DNA of 12,896 nucleotides from a virus. A model generated the notes under the pieces. It was not told the origin of the DNA. It searched no databases and was given only the letters and a program-made list of their open reading frames with translations. Position 1 is the stretch's first letter, and every line of letters starts with the position of its first letter. The position numbers were made by a program, and so were the translations under genes. The stretch lies in UHGV virus genome UHGV-0181219; one strand, 5' to 3'. Positions 1-7,245 of this stretch are shown here, one piece after another.

Positions 1-94
1 ATCCAAACTCAATATCCAGTGCATCAAAAAGCCAAAGCGGCGTTTGCCAGCAGTCTCTAACTTCTTTTGGTGTTTCTGATTTATGCTTAATCAT
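1..94 (-). CDS. Phage DNA N6-adenine methyltransferase-like protein, N-terminal fragment (gene continues past the window start)
   Basis: Minus-strand ATG at 92-94 overlaps the TGA stop of the HNH gene (ATGA). Translation MIKHKSETPKEVRDCWQTPLWLFDALDIEFG carries a W-x-TP-x-WLF motif that I recall from phage Dam-type methyltransferases. Only 31 codons are visible, so the call is tentative. Confidence 0.4.
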   Translation of the reverse strand, partial: MIKHKSETPKEVRDCWQTPLWLFDALDIEFG

Positions 95-618
95 ACAACC
101 TTCGCATATTGTCCGTGATATTTGTTGATAGCCTCACTGGCAACCAAACAAGCAAGTTCAAGATCTTCATAGAGCCCAAAATACAACCGGCCAAAATCTG
201 TGCGCACTTGAACGGCCCATTTATTTTTTTGCTTGTTCCATAAAACATTTTTTATTCCAGAACGGCTATTGCACTTAGTTTTCTGATTTCGGCTGTTTGC
301 TATCCGGCTTGCCTCCCTAAGATTTTTTGGGGAATTGTCCAGCCTGTTTCCGTTAATATGGTCAATATTTTTCAATGGCATTCTTTTGTTGTGCAGCGCA
401 AAAACAACTACGTGAACAAACATCTGAATGCCTGCAAAACACACCTGTCTATACCCAGATCCATTTATCGATGTTTTAATTTCATCTCCTGCCCGGTGGC
501 TGTGGTTGGGGTGTTTTAGCGAGTCCTTTTTGTATCTGACTGTATCTCCGTCTAAATACAGATAATCCTCAATAAGCCGATACCTATCTGACGCCGGCGT
601 ATTTGATTTGATAGTCAT
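91..618 (-). CDS. HNH homing endonuclease with a C-terminal AP2-type DNA-binding domain
   Basis: Track ORF 91..678 trimmed to the ATG at 616-618, which overlaps the ninB stop (ATGA). Product MTIKSN...YRLIEDYLYLDGDTVRYKK...IDHINGNRLDNSPKNLREASRIANSRN...NKWAVQVRTDFGRLYFGLYEDLELA shows the HNH_3 pattern (H-x-N-G-N...N-L) followed by an AP2-like segment. Confidence 0.8.
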   Translation of the reverse strand: MTIKSNTPASDRYRLIEDYLYLDGDTVRYKKDSLKHPNHSHRAGDEIKTSINGSGYRQVCFAGIQMFVHVVVFALHNKRMPLKNIDHINGNRLDNSPKNLREASRIANSRNQKTKCNSRSGIKNVLWNKQKNKWAVQVRTDFGRLYFGLYEDLELACLVASEAINKYHGQYAKVV

Positions 619-1055
619 GCAGCCCGATCTCCCCATCGCGCTTTCCATTCGAGAGCCAGTCGCGCTTCGTCTGACCACTTAACGCCACGCTCTGTACCGA
701 ATGCCTGTATAAGCTCTAATAGCTCCGCAAATTCGCTTACACGCATCCTGCTGGTTGACTGGCCTATTACCACAAAGCCATTCCCGGCAAGGTTAGGAAC
801 AACATCCTGCTGCTTTAATGCTGCGGTAAACACACACTTCCAGCTTTCTGCATCCAGCCAGCGACCATGCCATTCAACCTGACGAGAGACGTCACCTAAG
901 CAGGCCCATAGCTTCCTGTTTTGGTCTAAGCTGCGGTTGCGTTCCTGAATGGTTACTACGATTGGTTTGGTTGGGTCTGGAAGGATTTGCTGTACTGCGT
1001 GAATAGCGTTTTGCTGATGTGCTGGAGATCGAATTTCAAAGGTTAGTTTTTTCAT
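615..1055 (-). CDS. ninB: NinB (Orf-family recombination mediator)
   Basis: 146-aa product MKKLTFEIRSPAHQQNAIHAVQQILPDPTKPIVVTIQERNRSLDQNRKLWACLGDV... is near-identical over its length to lambda NinB as I recall it. Confidence 0.9.
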   Translation of the reverse strand: MKKLTFEIRSPAHQQNAIHAVQQILPDPTKPIVVTIQERNRSLDQNRKLWACLGDVSRQVEWHGRWLDAESWKCVFTAALKQQDVVPNLAGNGFVVIGQSTSRMRVSEFAELLELIQAFGTERGVKWSDEARLALEWKARWGDRAA

Positions 1056-1329: not shown

Positions 1330-1620
1330 TCATTGCCTTACCTCCATAAGCGCCCTATTAATAAACGCCGTCATTGGATTTGCACATCCCCACCCCGTAC
1401 CATCTGGATTTCTTTTAATTGGCTCCTTCTTCACTTTGCGTTTTGCATAAATAACCGTCTTCCACTTACGCTCAACAACACTCAAATGCCCTTGTTTCAC
1501 CATATGCCTTGCTGCTTGAGCGATTCTGTTATTTGGTATTCCGGTAATCAGTGCTAATTCATGTGGGGAGAATTGTTCATGAGTTTTCAGATATTCCAGG
1601 ATGATTTCTTTTCCAGTCAC
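1330..1620 (-). CDS. ren: Ren-like protein (winged-helix)
   Basis: 96-aa product MTGKEIILEYLKTHEQFSPHELALITGIPNNRIAQAARHM... matches the N-terminus and overall pattern of lambda Ren as recalled. Lies immediately after the DnaC-like gene with an ATGA overlap. Confidence 0.55.
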   Translation of the reverse strand: MTGKEIILEYLKTHEQFSPHELALITGIPNNRIAQAARHMVKQGHLSVVERKWKTVIYAKRKVKKEPIKRNPDGTGWGCANPMTAFINRALMEVRQ

Positions 1621-2462
1621 GATCTGCTCCTGTAACTATCCCATGTAAACGCAAGGGTGCATCCGCCGCCATCATTCATCCTGTCAATAACACGCTCACC
1701 AATGAATGCAGACAGTTCATCTTTGCTCTGGTTGCTAATCAGGATTGTTGGCTTCATGCGCTCGTAGCGGGTGTTGATGATTTCGAACATGATCATCTTT
1801 TCCGCCTCGCTTCCAAACTGCACACCAACCTCATCGATAATTAGCAGGTCAGGTTTAGTGAACTGTCGGATCACTTCATCCTCTGTGCGGGTGGAGTTTT
1901 TCGACCATGTTGATTTATATTCTCTGGCAATTTTCAGCGCCGTTGTGAAAATAGCTGAGCTTTGATGTTCCGTAATTGCGTGCCGGGCGATAGCCAGTGC
2001 AAGATGATTCTTTCCAGTACCAGGCTTTCCACACATAACCAGCCCACCGCCTTTCTGTAACCTCTCAGGCCATTTGCTGGCGTATGCCTGACACACTCTG
2101 AGCACTCTCTTTGCATCGTCGTTGACTGGCTCGTAGTTCTGTAGTGTGCAACCCTTGAATCGTTCAGGAATATCAAGATTATTCAACAGAAACTCGACAT
2201 TGCGCTTACGTGATTCCTCGTCGATTTTAATCTTCTCTGCCTGTAGCCGAATAAGCTCATCTCTCATGCATTCCGGGCATTCGCTAGGTCTTGAGGCAAA
2301 CTTAATTGGCCCAGTCGAGTAACGGTTACGCTGCTCAAACTCACCATGTTTTTCACAGATGCCAGTGCCAATTTCTACAGCTGTATGCTCGATAGCAATT
2401 GGCGGAGAACTCAATTCTGCAAGTTTTTTCTCCAGTTGGGAGATCTTTTCATCCAGCGTCAT
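1617..2462 (-). CDS. DnaC-like helicase loader (AAA+ ATPase)
   Basis: Walker A GKPGTGKNHLALAIA and Walker B LLIIDEVG are present, with an N-terminal Cys-rich region (CEKHG...CPEC) typical of DnaC/IstB-type phage replication proteins. Start moved to the ATG at 2460-2462 (MTLDEKISQ...), 2 nt after the O-like stop. Confidence 0.85.
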   Translation of the reverse strand: MTLDEKISQLEKKLAELSSPPIAIEHTAVEIGTGICEKHGEFEQRNRYSTGPIKFASRPSECPECMRDELIRLQAEKIKIDEESRKRNVEFLLNNLDIPERFKGCTLQNYEPVNDDAKRVLRVCQAYASKWPERLQKGGGLVMCGKPGTGKNHLALAIARHAITEHQSSAIFTTALKIAREYKSTWSKNSTRTEDEVIRQFTKPDLLIIDEVGVQFGSEAEKMIMFEIINTRYERMKPTILISNQSKDELSAFIGERVIDRMNDGGGCTLAFTWDSYRSRS

Positions 2463-2464
2463 GT

Positions 2465-3352
2465 TCACTCCTGCGCCCATGAAGGCATTTCAGTTTGTCC
2501 GTAATCTTTGGTGGCAAAGTTTTCAGCCTTAAGTCCATTAGCAACCTTGCGTACCGGTCTGGATAACGCCTGCTTGTTCTGGTAGCTGAGTTTCTGGCTG
2601 GCAGTGATAAACCAGTTCTTTGGCTTCTCATGGCTAAATTCGATATCCAGCCTTTCCAGTTCGTAATTCAGGTCAATGTTCGGATACAGGCGCTTCCATG
2701 CTTCGTAGTCCTTGTGGTTTAACCGAACGATATTTCCTTCGAATGCATAGCGACTTGAAATTTTATGGACATCAGCCCCACCCCCTTCACAAGTCGCGTC
2801 AGCGGCTTGGGTGTTAGAAAGGGAATCAGGAATCAGGTTAAGGGAATCAGGAATCAGGTTAAGGGAATCAGCAGGATTTAAACTGTTCTCTACTGGTTCT
2901 TGCACTGTACTTGCATGGTGCTTTTCTGGTTCTTCATTGTTTTCAATGATTTGTAGTGATTCGGCATTCTCCTTCTCTTCCTCTTTATCGTCCTTGCACT
3001 GTACTTGCATGGTGCTGTTATTGTTCTCTACTGGTTCTGGTATCTCACTGGCTGCTTCTTTGCAGTGAGGGTTCTGGTGCTTTTTCCAGTTATTGATTTG
3101 GATATATGAGCCGCCATTTACCTGATATCGGTTGATGAATTTGTGACTGTGAAGCTGCTGAAGCAGATCATTGCAGTCCACATCATCGAAAGGCAGTACC
3201 ATTGCTTTAATTTTCTTTGGGCGATCATCCAACCGCCCTTCTTTGTCAGCAATAGTCCATAACCCGGCAAAAAGGAGACGGGCATATGGAGAACACTCAG
3301 CTAATTCATCATTGGTGAAAAAGCCTGGTTTGATATTTCTTGAACGTGCCAT
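2465..3352 (-). CDS. Replication initiator / replisome organiser (O-like), with a C-terminal region resembling a DnaT-like domain
   Basis: Start set at the ATG at 3350-3352 (MARSRNIKPGFFTNDELAECSPYARLLFAGLW...), preceded by AAGGTGG. The acidic repeat-containing linker (DSLNLIPDSLNLIPDSL) is encoded by the iterons. The C-terminus (...ELERLDIEFSHEKPKNW...ASQKLSYQNK) loosely resembles the DnaT C-terminus from memory. Confidence 0.75.
   Translation of the reverse strand: MARSRNIKPGFFTNDELAECSPYARLLFAGLWTIADKEGRLDDRPKKIKAMVLPFDDVDCNDLLQQLHSHKFINRYQVNGGSYIQINNWKKHQNPHCKEAASEIPEPVENNNSTMQVQCKDDKEEEKENAESLQIIENNEEPEKHHASTVQEPVENSLNPADSLNLIPDSLNLIPDSLSNTQAADATCEGGGADVHKISSRYAFEGNIVRLNHKDYEAWKRLYPNIDLNYELERLDIEFSHEKPKNWFITASQKLSYQNKQALSRPVRKVANGLKAENFATKDYGQTEMPSWAQE
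2821..3037. repeat. Iteron-type direct repeats inside the O-like gene; putative phage replication origin
   Basis: GGGAATCAGGAATCAGGTTAA occurs in tandem at 2821-2841 and 2842-2862, with a partial third copy from 2863. CTTGCACTGTACTTGCATGGTGCT occurs at 2899-2922 and 2993-3016. TGTTCTCTACTGGTTC occurs at 2884-2899 and 3022-3037. Confidence 0.6.
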
Positions 3353-3363
3353 TTTGTCCACCT

Positions 3364-4164
3364 TTAGTACGGGAGTTCTTCCTGAGCTTCACGAATGCGT
3401 TCAGATACCCACTCCTTGAACGTTGTCCAGTTAGGTACTGTTTTCGCAAACTCAGTAAGTTCATCGAGATCTAAGTCGTATGAAAGCCATGCCTTGAGAT
3501 AACTCATTACATGGTTTTGATTGATATATATGCGGTTTTTAAGGATTCCTCTGATGTATAGAATCCTTTGTTCTTTTGGCGGTTTTCTTTTTGTCGCTGC
3601 TATGCGAGGGATGTACTCAAAGAATTCACCAGTAAGCTCATGGGTTATTTCTTGGGTGAGTTTTTTGTCTGCAGCAATCTCAATCGCATCGAGTATTTCT
3701 TCAAGCTTATATATTCGAAGCCATCTCTTGATAGATTTTCGCCCATTGTCATTAACAGTAAATGGCGCAATGCAGTCGTCAATTTTGGTAGCGACAATAT
3801 CAACAACATCGTCTTTCAGGCTCTTAAGACCATCTCGCCACTTGATCATCATCTCCAGTTGCTCTCGCTTGGTATTAAGTTCCTGGAGTTGCTGCCTTTG
3901 CTTTTCCATTATTGAATTATCGCTGAGCAGTTTGTCTCTTTTCCCGCCATTACAACTATCGCAAGAAGTAATAAGGTTCATCATGTCGTTATCGCCACCC
4001 TTGCTAACTGGGTTGATATGGTCGACATGAAGGATGACGTCTGGCGCAGAACTCCCACAGTACTGGCATTTGAAGCCATCGCGCTTGAAAACCTCAAACC
4101 GTATTTTCTTGGTAATGCCGGAACGAATCTTTTTTACCTGGTCTGGTGTAGGTTTTTTTGCCAT
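3364..4164 (-). CDS. HNH endonuclease-domain protein with a C-terminal domain of unknown function
   Basis: Start set at the ATG at 4162-4164 (MAKKPTP...), which has GGAG 6 nt upstream. N-terminus has HNH signatures (CQYCGSS...HVDHINPVSKGG...NLITSCDSCN), then a coiled-coil-like stretch and about 150 aa that I do not recognise. Confidence 0.75.
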   Translation of the reverse strand: MAKKPTPDQVKKIRSGITKKIRFEVFKRDGFKCQYCGSSAPDVILHVDHINPVSKGGDNDMMNLITSCDSCNGGKRDKLLSDNSIMEKQRQQLQELNTKREQLEMMIKWRDGLKSLKDDVVDIVATKIDDCIAPFTVNDNGRKSIKRWLRIYKLEEILDAIEIAADKKLTQEITHELTGEFFEYIPRIAATKRKPPKEQRILYIRGILKNRIYINQNHVMSYLKAWLSYDLDLDELTEFAKTVPNWTTFKEWVSERIREAQEELPY

Positions 4165-4185
4165 AATTAACTCCATAGAAAGCAG

Positions 4186-4485
4186 TTAAAAATCCATCTG
4201 GATTTGTTCAGAACGCTCGGTCTTGCACACCGGGCGTTTTTTATTGGTGATTTCATCAAGCGCATACTTAAAAGCCCTGCTAATCGGACTGATGTCTGAT
4301 GCCATTCCGAAAGCACACAAGACCGAAGCAATAAATCTCCAGTCCGTTCTGCTTATCTTCGATTCATGACAGCCAATCATCTTTGCCAGACCGCGCTGTG
4401 TAAGCGTTGACAGGTTGATGAGTAAATCAGTTTCAGCGCGATCAATTTCTCGCTGTGTTGGCTTGCTGTAACTTGCTTGTGTCAT
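4186..4485 (-). CDS. cII: cII-type transcriptional activator
   Basis: C-terminus ...EITNKKRPVCKTERSEQIQMDF closely matches lambda CII (...ILTNKKRPAATERSEQIQMEF). An HTH region (TQRGLAKMIGCHESKISR) precedes it, and the position after cro and nutR fits. Confidence 0.85.
   Translation of the reverse strand: MTQASYSKPTQREIDRAETDLLINLSTLTQRGLAKMIGCHESKISRTDWRFIASVLCAFGMASDISPISRAFKYALDEITNKKRPVCKTERSEQIQMDF
4214..4242 (+). terminator. Plus-strand rho-independent terminator antisense to the 3' end of cII (OOP-like)
   Basis: 8-bp stem CGCTCGGT/ACCGGGCG (4214-4221 and 4229-4236, one G-U pair), 7-nt loop, then TTTTTT at 4237-4242. It sits inside the cII coding region on the opposite strand. Confidence 0.5.
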
Positions 4486-4568
4486 TTGTTAATTTTCCAA
4501 TAGTGAATAGTTAGTTGAAAGGTATGCGTGGAAACGCATATGACCTTAGTTGGTCAGATATATTGGGA

Positions 4569-4583
4569 CTCGCTTTGTCAGCG
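4569..4583 (-). promoter_or_regulatory. nutR boxB-like hairpin (GACAA pentaloop)
   Basis: The minus-strand RNA reads UCGCU-GACAA-AGCGA, a 5-bp stem with the same GACAA loop as the nutL hairpin at 7562-7576. It lies between cro and cII. A boxA-like CGCTATTTT occurs about 23 nt upstream on the transcript (4607-4615 region). Confidence 0.5.
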
Positions 4584-4622
4584 ACGTAGGACGAATGTCC
4601 ATTGTGAAAATAGCGGTGTTAT

Positions 4623-4850
4623 TTATGCAGCCAGAAGGTTCTTTTTGCTTATTTCAAGCATTTCGCTTGCTTGATATTTGCCACCAGAAATCTCTTCGAT
4701 TTTTGATGCGTATTTCGTTTTCCCAAAAAACTCAGTCTTAGGGAGGAAGCCGTTTTTGAGCCACTTATAGACAGCCCTTTCGCTAACTCCACAAGCCTTC
4801 GCAACTTCAGGGATGCCGACACCTTTAATCGGCTCATCAAGATTTTGCAT
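4623..4850 (-). CDS. cro: Cro-like HTH repressor
   Basis: Divergent from cI across an operator-rich spacer. The product has an HTH (GIPEVAKACGVSERAVYKWLKNG). Start set at the internal ATG (MQNLDEP...) so that a 78-bp divergent promoter region remains; the longer start at 4883 is possible. Confidence 0.6.
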   Translation of the reverse strand: MQNLDEPIKGVGIPEVAKACGVSERAVYKWLKNGFLPKTEFFGKTKYASKIEEISGGKYQASEMLEISKKNLLAA

Positions 4851-4865
4851 AGGGATATCCTTTTT

Positions 4866-4927
4866 CGTACTTTCAGTACGCATTATGATTGAACTGAAAG
4901 TTTTTGCAAGTGCTTTAGTATCGTACT
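4866..4927. promoter_or_regulatory. OR-like operator cluster with divergent PR/PRM region
   Basis: Near-palindrome CGTACTTTCAGTACG at 4866-4880. Its core ACTTTCAGT (4870-4878) recurs inverted as ACTGAAAGT at 4893-4901. A third palindrome AGTATCGTACT lies at 4917-4927. Centres are about 23-25 bp apart. Confidence 0.4.
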
Positions 4928-4928
4928 C

Positions 4929-5636
4929 ATGGTTCAGAATGAAAAAGTGCGCAAAGAATTCGCCCAGCGGCTAGCGCAAGCCTGTAAAGAAGCTGGTCTT
5001 GATGAACATGGTAGGGGAATGGCTATAGCCCGTGCCCTTTCTCTTTCGTCCAAAGGCGTTAGCAAATGGTTTAATGCTGAGTCTTTACCGCGTCAGGAAA
5101 AAATGAATGCGCTTGCGAAATTTCTAAACGTTGATGTTGTTTGGCTTCAGCACGGCACTTCGTTAAATGGAGCGAATGATGAAGATACTCTTTCATTTGT
5201 TGGCAAATTAAAAAAAGGGTTAGTGCGCGTGGTTGGTGAGGCAATTCTTGGTGTTGATGGTGCCATCGAGATGACCGAAGAGCGCGATGGGTGGCTCAAG
5301 ATTTATAGCGATGATCCAGATGCCTTTGGTCTTCGTGTGAAAGGAGACAGCATGTGGCCCAGAATAAAATCAGGAGAATATGTACTCATTGAGCCTAACA
5401 CCAAAGTATTCCCGGGTGATGAGGTGTTTGTCAGAACCGTTGAAGGACACAACATGATTAAGGTTCTTGGCTATGACAGAGATGGAGAATACCAATTTAC
5501 AAGCATTAACCAGGACCACAGGCCTATAACGTTGCCTTATCATCAAGTAGCAAAGGTGGAGTATGTGGCTGGTATTCTGAAGCAATCTCGCCATCTGGAT
5601 GACATCGAGGCAAGGGAGTGGCTGAAAAATTCGTGA
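4929..5636 (+). CDS. cI: cI-type prophage repressor (HTH plus LexA-like S24 autopeptidase)
   Basis: N-terminal HTH region and a C-terminal S24 signature (GDSMWPRIKSGEYVLIEP ... MIKVL). No SD precedes the ATG, consistent with a leaderless PRM transcript as in lambda cI. Confidence 0.85.
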   Translation: MVQNEKVRKEFAQRLAQACKEAGLDEHGRGMAIARALSLSSKGVSKWFNAESLPRQEKMNALAKFLNVDVVWLQHGTSLNGANDEDTLSFVGKLKKGLVRVVGEAILGVDGAIEMTEERDGWLKIYSDDPDAFGLRVKGDSMWPRIKSGEYVLIEPNTKVFPGDEVFVRTVEGHNMIKVLGYDRDGEYQFTSINQDHRPITLPYHQVAKVEYVAGILKQSRHLDDIEAREWLKNS

Positions 5637-5836: not shown

Positions 5837-6316
5837 ATGGATAAAATTAATTACCCACCCCTGTTTGAGCCAGGGTTCCATGACATGGATGAAGCTGGAT
5901 TAAAATCGTATTGTGTCGATTGCTTTCCTTCATCATCCAGGCGAGGCATGCTATACTGTAATTTTATACAGCTACTCGAATCTATTCGAGAATTATCTGC
6001 TCAATATGGCTGTTTTACAGAAATATGGGTTGATGGTTCATACACCACGTCTAAACCAGAGCCTGATGATATTGATATTTTGTTGGTATGTGACTATAGC
6101 AATATAAACTCAATACCTGTCATGCTTCGGGGCCGCGTCGATAATTTGCTTGACCGAAACTACATCAAACAAAACTACAAAATTGATGTCCTACTACTCA
6201 TGAAGAATTTAGATGACCCTAACTATGATTATGAGTACTGGCGTAGCTACTGGCGCGGTTGGTTTGGTTTTGATCGCAGTGAAAACCCGAAAGGGTTAGT
6301 GAGGATTTTTTTATGA
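5837..6316 (+). CDS. Minimal nucleotidyltransferase (pol-beta-fold, MNT/SMODS-like), first gene of the candidate defence cassette
   Basis: 159-aa product with the pol-beta NTase signature: helix RELSAQYG, then G67-S68, D78-I-D80 (DIDILLV) and D117 (KIDVLLL). Its stop overlaps the next start (ATGA at 6313-6316). Confidence 0.7.
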   Translation: MDKINYPPLFEPGFHDMDEAGLKSYCVDCFPSSSRRGMLYCNFIQLLESIRELSAQYGCFTEIWVDGSYTTSKPEPDDIDILLVCDYSNINSIPVMLRGRVDNLLDRNYIKQNYKIDVLLLMKNLDDPNYDYEYWRSYWRGWFGFDRSENPKGLVRIFL

Positions 6317-7245
6317 ATGATAAATCAATGTTTAAAAATTGCGATAAACGCATTGATTTCATTCAAAAAGAAGTCGATGCAATGAAGCAAAACAAAACCA
6401 GGTCCTTTGCTGACATGCTTCTTTATCGCTCCATGGATTCTCATCTGAGCGATTTGAAGGCCGAAAAATTAAAGCAAGATAGTCGGCACCCACTTATCGA
6501 TTTTTTTGAGCTGCGGCTGAAAGGCTCTGAGGTTGACTTTGGCTCTATTCCTTTAGAGCTGCTTGGGGCTATTTCAACAAATCTTGCAGCGCTAATACAA
6601 AGAGCAACACACAAAATTGCCTCAGGCAAGGACTCAAAAAAAGTTCCCTACGACGTGAAAAGCTCCTTAAACCTCAGGCTGGCTGATTTATCCCCTGGGT
6701 CTACAAAATTGGGCGTCACCTTCTCTACAGGAATAGCAGAATTAGTAGAAACAGTACCCAGCAAGGCTGTAAAAGGCATATTCGATTTGTTGTTAAGCGA
6801 TGACGACAACAACTTCATGAATCACGTCGCTGAAATTGGATACAATTCCACTGTAAGCCTTAAGAGAATCGTAGAGGAATGCGATAAACACAACTTAACA
6901 TTTGATGCAAGTTGGACCGGTCCATTTAGTAATGGCACCAAGGTGGCAACTATTGACTCCAATAAAATTAAGTACTTGGTGAGTAGACTTACATCAACCA
7001 TTTCATCCCCTCCCATTACTGAAACGGTTACAGGCGAACTGGTCGTTCTATCCAAATATGGGAAGCTGGAGCTTGATGTTGGTGGTGAACATTTAAAGGC
7101 TTCCTATCCGATTGAAATGCTAGATTTAATACAAAAAAAACACAAGGTCGGACAGATTGTTTCTCTTTTAGTGGAGACTACTGAGATTCACAATGATCGC
7201 ATAGGTCTGTACCGTAAAAACCATCTTGTTAAATCGGTTCTTTAA
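6313..7245 (+). CDS. Hypothetical 310-aa protein, partner of the nucleotidyltransferase
   Basis: GAGGA RBS 7 nt upstream, translationally coupled to the NTase gene. I recognise no family; no convincing transmembrane segment. An R39-x4-H44 motif near the N-terminus is noted without weight. Confidence 0.7.
   Translation: MNDKSMFKNCDKRIDFIQKEVDAMKQNKTRSFADMLLYRSMDSHLSDLKAEKLKQDSRHPLIDFFELRLKGSEVDFGSIPLELLGAISTNLAALIQRATHKIASGKDSKKVPYDVKSSLNLRLADLSPGSTKLGVTFSTGIAELVETVPSKAVKGIFDLLLSDDDNNFMNHVAEIGYNSTVSLKRIVEECDKHNLTFDASWTGPFSNGTKVATIDSNKIKYLVSRLTSTISSPPITETVTGELVVLSKYGKLELDVGGEHLKASYPIEMLDLIQKKHKVGQIVSLLVETTEIHNDRIGLYRKNHLVKSVL

What the first reader, a model, noticed from the sequence alone, without database searches (positions are those of the whole stretch)
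3364..4164. HNH-domain protein inserted between cII and the replication genes
In the canonical lambda layout cII is followed directly by O. Here a 266-aa protein with an N-terminal HNH motif and an unrecognised C-terminal domain occupies that slot and is tightly packed against the O-like start. It could be a replication accessory nuclease, a mobile HNH element, or an anti-defence or exclusion function.
Basis: partly seen in the sequence, partly recalled or inferred. Interest (0 to 1): 0.5.

Follow-up and report, generated by a model that had tools for sequence, protein, structure and literature searches.

The report
Swappable HNH nuclease cassette before rep
The gene is real and encodes an HNH DNA-cutting enzyme with a conserved extra domain. 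It belongs to a widespread, already-annotated family that sits as an exchangeable cassette just ahead of the phage replication-initiator gene, and it most likely acts as a selfish or competitive nuclease rather than as core replication machinery.

Summary
It lies between cII and a non-lambda-O initiator whose ATG is 11 nt past the HNH stop.

- **Family:** HNH (PF01844) N-terminus, a 49-residue helix, and a confidently folded helical C-domain with no Pfam, PDB or BFVD match. It is phrog_16986, with 1562 homologs and every catalytic and zinc residue invariant. RefSeq and GenBank already call it "HNH endonuclease".
- **Always beside an initiator:** in 80 of 80 viral loci, the family gene abuts a gene that is a replication initiator or organizer in all but one unclassified and two weakly classified cases. 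These initiators belong to several unrelated families.
- **Not required by the initiator:** among the 80 closest relatives of this initiator, only 15 carry the gene. 55 carry a T5orf172 (GIY-YIG clan) protein and 10 carry a small unknown protein in the same slot. The borders are exact, and slot types are interspersed among near-identical initiators.
- **Repeats elsewhere:** the HNH/T5orf172 alternation recurs in a Pseudomonas initiator lineage.
- **Mobile:** family members also sit in bacterial housekeeping loci, for example pyrH-frr.

Best reading: a free-standing, homing-type or competitive nuclease cassette. A replication-accessory role is not excluded. Function is untested. It is a new member of a known kind, of modest interest.

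The parts
3364..4164 (-). HNH-family gene, 266 aa including the stop codon; member of phrog_16986
   Evidence: ORF. phrog_16986 at 1e-150 over the full length. 99.6% identical to 'HNH endonuclease' of phages Louie and Dewey. 100% nucleotide match to the E. coli PD7 prophage.
3934..4068 (-). HNH (beta-beta-alpha-metal) nuclease core, residues 33-77, with two CxxC zinc pairs (C33/C36, C68/C71), D48-H49, N63 and N72
3772..3918 (-). Single long helix, residues 83-131, carrying the conserved REQLEMM..WR motif; links the two domains
   Evidence: AF2 model secondary structure H83-131. Conserved R100, Q102, M105 and W109.
3376..3750 (-). All-helical C-terminal domain, residues 139-263, of unknown function; invariant Y203, G206, I207, R211 and W246
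4171..4174 (-). GGAG ribosome-binding site, 6 nt before the ATG at 4164
   Evidence: Read directly from the sequence.
3353..4161 (-). The exchangeable cassette. Homology to HNH-less relatives stops at about 4162 on the cII side, at the cassette gene's ATG, and resumes at 3352/3353, the rep ATG.
   Evidence: blastn of the window against 18 HNH-less loci. Pairwise L098/L099/L097 comparisons show 92-96% identical flanks with non-homologous slot content.
2465..3352 (-). Replication initiator gene, 295 aa from the ATG at 3352; its AGGTGG ribosome-binding site lies at 3358-3363
   Evidence: phrog_17247 (3e-191) and 'replication initiation protein' phrog_16167, 12556 and 1408. Annotated as replication initiation protein in phage Louie.
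2819..3047 (.). Iteron-like repeats inside rep, the presumed origin: 3 x AAGGGAATCAG at 21-nt spacing (2819-2871) and 47-nt repeats (2885-3047)
   Evidence: the repeat finder. Assigning these as the origin is an inference, by analogy with lambda ori lying inside O.
4186..4485 (-). cII gene, the upstream flank of the cassette
   Evidence: Pfam Phage_CII at 4.6e-35.
1617..2462 (-). DnaC-like helicase loader, third gene of the module
   Evidence: IstB_IS21 at 1.8e-18 and phrog_50 at 3.2e-86. The 281-aa start is the one used in Louie.
4882..4909 (-). PR-like promoter, the only promoter-like site upstream of cro-cII-HNH-rep
   Evidence: Consensus scan: one site in 2400-5000 and none between cII and the HNH gene. 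This is a consensus match only.

Best explanation
The gene encodes a two-domain DNA endonuclease.

**What is shown**
- The N-terminus is a zinc-stabilised HNH domain of the McrA / Gme-HNH / IscB-Cas9 type.
- A 49-residue helix links it to a conserved helical C-domain.
- The catalytic and zinc residues are intact and invariant across the family.
- The gene is the variable cargo of a cassette site between cII and the initiator gene, with precise borders.
- In close relatives the same site holds a T5orf172 (GIY-YIG clan) protein or a small unknown protein.
- Family members also occur in unrelated chromosomal loci.

**What is inferred**
- The gene lies in the early rightward operon, since no promoter-like site of its own was found.
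- The enzyme has one active site per protomer, so each protomer most likely nicks one strand.
- It behaves as a free-standing, homing-type (selfish or competitive) nuclease. During co-infection, or on meeting a resident relative, it would cut DNA of related replicons that lack the cassette, in or near the cII-rep/ori region.
- Recombinational repair would then copy the cassette, together with the adjacent 5' end of rep, into the cut genome.
- It is not a core part of the initiation machinery.
For: 1. **Patchy and swappable.** Only 15 of the 80 closest relatives of the initiator have the gene. 55 have a T5orf172/MUG113 protein and 10 have phrog_30464 in the same slot.
2. **Interspersed slot types.** In the initiator tree the three slot types are mixed among near-identical initiators.
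3. **Exact borders.** Homology of 92-96% ends after the cII stop and resumes at the rep ATG.
4. **Replicated alternation.** The same HNH/T5orf172 alternation recurs in an independent Pseudomonas initiator lineage: 18 HNH, 8 T5orf172, 13 small ORFs, 2 Rha/ANT and 1 with none. A nuclease is therefore dispensable for that initiator.
5. **Co-conversion-like gradient.** Between L098 (HNH) and L099, 24 of 32 rep differences lie in the first 200 nt next to the cassette, with none across roughly 250-400 and 450-800 nt.
6. **Mobility to unrelated sites.** Full-length homologs, 46% identical, sit between pyrH and frr in Ca. Electronema. Another lies beside a second HNH gene between HIT and DUF374 genes.
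7. **Nuclease type.** The closest structures are nicking or modification-dependent HNH enzymes.
8. **Literature.** HNH and T5orf172 are the main phage homing-endonuclease families. They cluster at essential genes, including replisome genes; different classes share loci; and they sit at recombination boundaries (PMC10055350). T5orf172 nuclease activity was shown for Odn (PMC8263062).
Against: - In 80/80 viral loci the family gene directly abuts a downstream ORF that is an initiator or organizer in nearly all cases, usually with overlapping stop and start codons, and across unrelated initiator families and host phyla. A homing site would not be expected to carry over in this way.
- In this initiator family the slot is never empty, whereas the homing cycle predicts empty and decayed sites.
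- Within HNH-positive phages, HNH, rep and dnaC identities decline together. That points to long co-inheritance, not recent invasion.
- HNH and T5orf172 domains also occur fused inside initiators. This could equally indicate a shared function.
- No target site, cleavage activity or gene conversion has been shown.
Confidence: 0.45

Rival explanations
1. Replication-accessory nuclease. The protein would work with the initiator at or near the origin, for example by nicking to start or switch to rolling-circle replication, or by processing forks or D-loops. T5orf172 proteins would be functional analogues filling the same role.
For: - 80/80 adjacency to initiators of several unrelated families, often with overlapping stop and start codons, in phages of Gamma- and Alphaproteobacteria, Firmicutes and cyanobacteria.
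- The slot is always filled in the enterobacterial initiator lineage.
- HNH, rep and dnaC identities co-decay while cII is unlinked.
- Initiator::HNH and initiator::T5orf172 fusions exist: phrog_5718, phrog_8130, the P27 Rep, L053 and L082.
- All catalytic residues are invariant.
- Staphylococcal phages place an unrelated HNHc_6 nuclease directly upstream of the replisome organizer (PMC12323379).
Against: - Near-identical initiators work with HNH, T5orf172 or a 134-aa protein without a recognisable nuclease domain.
- In the Pseudomonas lineage 13 of 42 slots hold only 64-80 aa ORFs and 1 holds none.
- The C-domain shows no supported homology to replisome proteins.
- Family members occur in chromosomal loci with no initiator nearby.
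Confidence: 0.25
2. Domesticated weapon, for exclusion or against satellites. The nuclease would be kept because it cuts competing replicons (other lambdoid phages, satellites or plasmids) or host DNA early in infection, analogous to ICP1 Odn or PLE NixI, without necessarily spreading by homing.
For: - Odn is a nuclease aimed at an origin through a Rep DNA-binding domain, and similar proteins arose repeatedly in coliphages (PMC8263062; PMC10055350, section 24).
- NixI is an HNH nickase that blocks a rival's replication (10.1101/2021.07.12.452122).
- Rep N-domain::HNH and Rep N-domain::T5orf172 fusions exist in relatives.
- Early co-expression with rep is inferred from operon position.
- The protein is strongly conserved.
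Against: - The window protein has no Rep-like DNA-binding domain. Its C-domain matches nothing in the initiators.
- PADLOC hits are weak and confined to the HNH domain, and no partner genes are present.
- No target is known.
Confidence: 0.2
3. Packaging-type HNH, the cos-cleavage helper of terminase, as in HK97-like and staphylococcal cos phages.
For: The HNH domain is structurally closest to Gme HNH and GVE2 HNH. Those enzymes belong to the terminase-associated group described in PMC3592412.
Against: - The gene lies in the early operon between cII and rep, not next to terminase or portal genes.
- In all 80 viral loci the downstream neighbour is a closely abutting ORF that classifies as a replication initiator or organizer in nearly every case, not a terminase.
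- The extra C-domain is absent from that group.
Confidence: 0.03

Closest known systems
Free-standing phage HNH homing endonucleases (I-HmuI type; T4 Mob genes; ICP1 HNH and T5orf172 endonuclease genes described in PMC10055350 and PMC9040626)
   Same: - An N-terminal nuclease plus a separate C-terminal module.
- Located between conserved, essential genes.
- Patchy among close relatives, with alternation between HNH and GIY-YIG-clan genes at one site and precise borders at a recombination boundary.
- Copies at unrelated loci.
   Different: - No homing, target site or cleavage has been shown.
- The HNH domain is of the McrA/IscB-Cas9/HNH_5 type with two CxxC pairs, not the I-HmuI HNH/N type.
- The C-domain is not a NUMOD, IENR1 or AP2 module.
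- Phage members are almost invariably next to an initiator gene.
- No empty sites are seen in the nearest initiator lineage.
Gme HNH (PDB 4h9d) and phage GVE2 HNH (5h0o) nicking endonucleases; EcoKMcrA (6ghc)
   Different: They are about 100-aa single-domain enzymes or carry other N-terminal domains. They lack the long helix and the 125-aa helical C-domain. The phage examples are terminase-associated.
ICP1 Odn (origin-directed nuclease) and coliphage Odn-like proteins
   Same: A homing-endonuclease-type nuclease functionally tied to replication initiators and origins. Relatives of this locus contain Rep N-domain::HNH and Rep N-domain::T5orf172 fusions, the same domain logic as Odn (PMC8263062, PMC10055350).
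   Different: The window protein itself carries no Rep-like DNA-binding domain. Odn uses T5orf172, not HNH. The Pseudomonas P27 fusion is the only initiator in its module and keeps both Rep ends, so it may simply be the initiator.
HNHc_6 nuclease gene upstream of the replisome organizer in staphylococcal Phietaviruses (e.g. ASZ22RN gp53)
   Same: The same gene order (nuclease, then initiator, then DnaC-like loader), with the nuclease gene overlapping the initiator gene (PMC12323379, Table 1).
   Different: It is a different His-Me finger family. HNHc_6 was not detected in the window protein at E<=0.01. The function of that gene is also untested as far as I could find.

Membership tests
HNH / His-Me finger nucleases (Pfam PF01844, HNH_5) | Profile match above the curated threshold | tested here: met
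   PF01844 scores 50.5 bits against a cut-off of 21.4. HNH_5 scores 47.3 against 27.5.
HNH / His-Me finger nucleases (Pfam PF01844, HNH_5) | Catalytic His, the Asn residues and (in this subgroup) two CxxC zinc pairs are present and conserved | tested here: met
   C33, C36, D48, H49, N63, C68, C71 and N72 are invariant in 34 homologs sharing 45-85% identity.
HNH / His-Me finger nucleases (Pfam PF01844, HNH_5) | Beta-beta-alpha-metal fold | tested here: met
HNH / His-Me finger nucleases (Pfam PF01844, HNH_5) | Metal-dependent DNA cleavage | not testable with these tools
   Requires a biochemical assay.
Free-standing homing endonuclease gene | Patchy presence among close relatives at one locus, with precise borders between conserved genes | tested here: met
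   15 of 80 initiator relatives carry it. Slot types are interspersed in the tree. Flanks are 92-96% identical.
Free-standing homing endonuclease gene | Family members at unrelated genomic sites (evidence of transposition to new targets) | tested here: met
   A copy lies between pyrH and frr in Ca. Electronema, and another at a HIT/DUF374 locus with a second HNH gene.
Free-standing homing endonuclease gene | Empty (endonuclease-less) target alleles exist in the population | tested here: inconclusive
   None are empty among the 80 nearest initiator relatives, because the slot always holds another gene. In the Pseudomonas lineage 13 slots hold only 64-80 aa ORFs and 1 holds none.
Free-standing homing endonuclease gene | Site-specific cleavage of the endonuclease-less allele, and super-Mendelian inheritance with co-conversion of flanks | not testable with these tools
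   Only an indirect hint exists: rep differences between L098 and L099 cluster in the 200 nt next to the cassette.
Terminase-associated (cos-packaging) HNH | The gene is adjacent to terminase or portal genes | tested here: not met
   The neighbours are cII and the initiator in the window, and a closely abutting initiator-type ORF in 80/80 viral loci.
DnaD / DnaB_2 (DDBH2) domain, considered for the C-terminal domain | Sequence-profile or profile-profile match to DnaB_2 | tested here: not met
   No DnaB_2 hit for any of the 29 members at E<=1. hhalign against a small DnaB_2-positive set gives 4% probability and aligns only a 12-aa motif.
DnaD / DnaB_2 (DDBH2) domain, considered for the C-terminal domain | Fold match to solved DnaD-like domains | tested here: inconclusive
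Origin-directed nuclease (Odn-like) | Nuclease domain fused to a homolog of a Rep origin-binding domain | tested here: not met
   The window protein has no similarity to any initiator outside the HNH domain. The feature is present only in relatives: the P27 Rep, L053, L082, phrog_5718 and phrog_8130.
Known anti-phage defence systems (PADLOC: Septu PtuB, Zorya ZorE, etc.) | Full-length model match together with partner genes | tested here: not met
   Hits cover residues about 7-110 only, with E values of 6e-8 or weaker. No PtuA or Zor partners are nearby.

The most novel reading that the evidence does not exclude
Temperate phages across several bacterial phyla may keep a dedicated 'pre-initiator nuclease slot'. 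In this reading, interchangeable homing-type nucleases (the HNH family studied here, T5orf172, HNHc_6) are coupled in expression to the initiator and act on the replication origin or replisome.

They could act in either of two ways:
- triggering or switching the phage's own replication mode;
- destroying rival replicons that use the same origin.

The conserved helical C-domain would be a previously uncharacterised module directing the nuclease to the replication apparatus. The initiator::nuclease fusions would be the fused form of the same system.
Probability: 0.2. Interest if true: 0.65.

Novelty: new member of a known kind. Interest (0 to 1): 0.35.

Why it matters
- **If the selfish-nuclease reading is right,** the gene marks a recombination hot spot that drives mosaicism at the immunity/replication-module boundary of lambdoid prophages, including Stx-phage relatives. 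It would explain why that junction is so variable.
- **If the minority reading is right,** a nuclease would be a regular, exchangeable partner of phage initiators. That would bear on how lambdoid phages start or switch replication modes, and on competition between co-resident prophages.
- **In either case,** the C-terminal domain is a well-folded, widespread module (1145 representative proteins) with no known function or relatives.

Tried and rejected
- **C-domain identity.**
  - Pfam scans of 29 members found nothing.
  - A PDB sequence profile search found only designed repeats and noise.
  - Foldseek against BFVD gave a best E of 0.077.
  - hhalign against DnaB_2-positive initiator C-termini gave 4% probability.
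  - I had suspected a DnaD-like domain from the Y-x-R-G-I-L-x-N-R motif, and I now rate that unsupported.
- **afdb50 fold search.** The library was not available.
- **A fusion of the whole HNH/C-domain protein to an initiator.** The 400-570 aa family members carry unrelated, diverse C-terminal extensions, not Rep domains.
- **Fixed target-site differences between HNH-positive and HNH-negative rep 5' ends.** Only one perfectly discriminating column was found, a synonymous site in codon 2. It is too weak, and it is confounded by linkage.
- **Foreign base composition.** The gene is 42.2% GC against 43.9% for the window, which is unremarkable.
- **Own promoter or terminator around the gene.** None was found on the coding strand.
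- **Rfam.** No family matched in the window.
- **Literature.** I found no paper on this family, on JBD44 plus HNH, or on an HNH gene between cII and rep.
- **PADLOC defence models.** Only weak hits to the HNH domain.
- **Terminase-associated HNH.** Rejected on gene context.

Full report
**1. Observation**

The ORF is real and lies on the minus strand at 3364-4164. It encodes 266 aa beginning MAKK; an in-frame ATG at 4176 would give 270 aa.

- GGAG at 4171-4174 sits 6 nt before the ATG at 4164.
- The stop codon is TAA at 3366-3364. It is followed by AGGTGG and, after 11 nt, by the ATG (3352) of the next gene.
- The neighbouring genes, all on the minus strand, run cro-like, cII (Phage_CII, 4.6e-35), the HNH gene, a replication initiator, a DnaC-like loader, a MarR-like gene and ninB. 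cI lies on the plus strand.
- The initiator matches phrog_17247, 16167, 12556 and 1408 and has no Pfam match at E<=0.01.
- The only promoter-like site upstream is PR-like, at 4909-4882. The gene therefore appears to belong to the early rightward operon. This is an inference from a consensus scan.

**2. The protein**

Residues 33-77 match Pfam HNH (2.3e-13) and HNH_5. NCBIfam gives only sub-threshold IscB and Cas9-type HNH hits. The whole protein matches phrog_16986, annotated 'unknown function', at 1e-150.

A database search found 1562 homologs at E<=1e-5, nearly all 245-290 aa. In an alignment of 34 homologs sharing 45-85% identity, two sets of residues are invariant:
- C33, C36, D48, H49, N63, C68, C71 and N72 in the nuclease domain;
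- R100, Q102, M105, W109, Y203, G206, I207, R211 and W246 in the rest of the protein.

The AlphaFold model (pLDDT 85.5) shows three parts: the HNH domain (residues 1-80), one long helix (83-131), and a helical domain (139-263). Modelled alone, the C-domain reaches pLDDT 96.

A profile search of 1.84 billion representative proteins found 1145 proteins with the C-domain. Most are fused to HNH. A few carry an XRE-type HTH instead (P0183), and some have unrelated 150-300 aa C-terminal extensions. None is fused to an initiator.

**3. Forward synteny: from the HNH family to its neighbours**

Near-identical copies occur in three places:
- E. coli phages Louie and Dewey, where the gene is annotated 'HNH endonuclease';
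- an Stx1a phage;
- 18 of 5426 complete E. coli genomes.

Full-length homologs at 36-52% identity occur in phages of Pseudomonas, Oenococcus, Komagataeibacter and Vibrio, and a shorter one occurs in Synechococcus phages. In every case the gene lies immediately upstream of a replication initiator or organizer gene.

In 80 of 80 IMG/VR loci, a same-strand ORF of 180-390 aa abuts or overlaps the family gene, with gaps from -59 to +24 nt. I took 46 representatives of these downstream proteins:
- 34 match 'replication initiation protein' PHROGs;
- the rest match O-like, DnaD-like loader, primosomal or replisome-organizer PHROGs;
- only one (L083) was unclassified, and two more (L064, L073) had only weak or partial initiator hits.

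Several downstream initiators themselves contain an HNH domain: Pseudomonas phage P27 Rep residues 108-206, L053 and L082. phrog_5718 is such a fusion.

**4. Reverse synteny: from the initiator to its upstream slot**

Among the 80 closest viral relatives of the window initiator (68-98% aa identity), the slot immediately upstream holds:
- the HNH family in only 15;
- a roughly 245-aa T5orf172/MUG113 protein (GIY-YIG clan, phrog_16524) in 55;
- a 134-159 aa phrog_30464 protein with no Pfam domain in 10.

The slot is never empty.

The cassette borders are exact. Homology between HNH-positive and HNH-negative genomes (92-96% nt) ends just after the cII stop, at the cassette gene's ATG, and resumes at the rep ATG (window 3352/3353).

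In a neighbour-joining tree of the initiators, the three slot types are interspersed among near-identical initiators. For example, L098 (HNH) is sister to L099 (phrog_30464). Between L098 and L099, 24 of the 32 differences in the first 900 nt of rep lie in the 200 nt next to the cassette.

phrog_8130 combines the initiator N-domain with T5orf172, as phrog_5718 does with HNH.

The alternation repeats in an independent lineage. Upstream of the Pseudomonas JBD44-type initiator, 42 loci show 18 HNH-family genes, 8 T5orf172 genes, 13 ORFs of only 64-80 aa, 2 Rha/ANT proteins and 1 with nothing.

Within HNH-positive enterobacterial loci, HNH, rep and dnaC identities fall together (HNH 100 to 85%, Rep 98 to 62%, DnaC 99 to 30%). 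cII is unlinked.

**5. Non-phage copies**

A 46%-identical full-length homolog in Candidatus Electronema lies between pyrH and frr, inside the rpsB-tsf-pyrH-frr-uppS-cdsA-dxr housekeeping cluster. A close relative of that protein lies next to a second HNH gene, between HIT and DUF374 genes. These loci contain no initiator. They show that the family can move to unrelated sites.

**6. Interpretation**

The data pull in two directions.

*Towards a replication-linked function:*
- the family-wide adjacency to initiators and the tight stop/start arrangement;
- the co-decay of HNH, rep and dnaC identity;
- the initiator::nuclease fusions.

*Towards an accessory, mobile nuclease:*
- free exchange of the slot content among near-identical initiators;
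- replacement by a different homing-type nuclease family or by small non-nuclease ORFs;
- exact borders at a mosaic junction;
- a co-conversion-like gradient in rep;
- insertions in housekeeping loci.

Published work supports the second view:
- HNH and T5orf172 genes are the main phage homing-endonuclease families.
- They cluster next to essential genes, including replisome genes.
- Different classes share loci, and they mark recombination boundaries (PMC10055350; PMC9040626).
- The same nuclease domains have been recruited, by fusion to Rep DNA-binding domains, as origin-directed weapons (Odn, PMC8263062).
- An HNH nickase can block a rival's replication (NixI, 10.1101/2021.07.12.452122).

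| Reading | Confidence |
|---|---|
| Free-standing homing-type or competitive nuclease cassette | 0.45 |
| Replication-accessory nuclease | 0.25 |
| Domesticated exclusion or anti-satellite nuclease | 0.20 |
| Packaging (terminase-associated) HNH | 0.03 |

The packaging reading is rejected on gene context. None of these functions has been tested experimentally. I found no paper on this family.

**7. Novelty and score**

The gene is a member of a catalogued PHROG and is annotated in public records. By sequence and structure its nuclease domain is ordinary.

Three things appear not to be described specifically:
- the recurrent 'pre-initiator' cassette site with HNH/T5orf172 alternation in two phage lineages;
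- the parallel initiator::nuclease fusions;
- the orphan C-domain.

These fit general patterns already reported for phage homing endonucleases. I rate the finding a new member of a known kind, interest 0.35. The more novel reading, a dedicated nuclease slot coupled to the replication module, has about 0.2 probability.

Noticed in passing
window 5837-6316 and 6313-7245 (+): Two overlapping genes next to cI match the PADLOC candidate defence pair PDC-M63A (1.8e-41) and PDC-M63B (7.5e-45). This is probably a prophage-borne defence moron in the rexAB-like position.
   Followed up: no
window 91-678 (-): A second nuclease gene of a different family: HNH_3 (Pfam 5.5e-11) with a weak PADLOC 'homing endonuclease' hit. 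It overlaps the end of ninB. Phages Louie and PD7 have a DNA methyltransferase at that position, so this also looks like a free-standing endonuclease insertion.
   Followed up: partly
window 2819-3047: Iteron-like repeats inside the initiator gene: 3 x AAGGGAATCAG at 21-nt spacing, plus 47-nt repeats. They encode the 'ADSLNLIPDSL' peptide repeats that recur in many initiators of this family and are presumably the origin.
   Followed up: partly
window 4210-4240 (+): A 12-bp hairpin followed by a T run, antisense to the 3' end of cII, in the position of the lambda oop RNA terminator. A CATAAT sequence overlaps the HNH start codon. There is no Rfam match.
   Followed up: no
L097 2264-3001; L110 2242-2994; L176 2603-3001: T5orf172/MUG113 (GIY-YIG clan) proteins fill the same cII-rep slot in most relatives of this initiator, and also in a Pseudomonas initiator lineage. 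One copy (L134) is split into two ORFs, which may indicate decay.
   Followed up: yes
L099 2597-3001; L161 2540-3001: The third alternative occupant of the slot is a 134-159 aa protein (phrog_30464) with no Pfam domain and unknown function.
   Followed up: partly
L004 4431-5513 (Pseudomonas phage P27); L053 4774-5403; L082 3732-4916: These initiators carry an HNH domain inserted after, or fused to, the conserved N-terminal domain, while a stand-alone HNH-family gene sits just upstream. PHROG families phrog_5718 (Rep N-domain + HNH) and phrog_8130 (Rep N-domain + T5orf172) capture such fusions.
   Followed up: partly
L228 5001-5810 (Ca. Electronema sp. JM); L229 2305-3741: Chromosomal, non-phage copies of the family. 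One is inserted between pyrH and frr in the conserved rpsB-tsf-pyrH-frr-uppS cluster. Another is in tandem with a second, shorter HNH gene between HIT and DUF374 genes.
   Followed up: partly
L227 1204-2319 (protein P0183): The orphan C-domain also occurs with an N-terminal XRE-type HTH in place of HNH, next to a PIN-domain gene. This suggests the C-domain is not itself the sequence-reading module.
   Followed up: no
Staphylococcus phage ASZ22RN genes 53-55 (PMC12323379, Table 1): An unrelated HNHc_6 nuclease gene overlaps the start of the replisome-organizer gene, which is followed by a DnaC/DnaI loader. This is the same nuclease-initiator-loader order in Firmicute phages.
   Followed up: no
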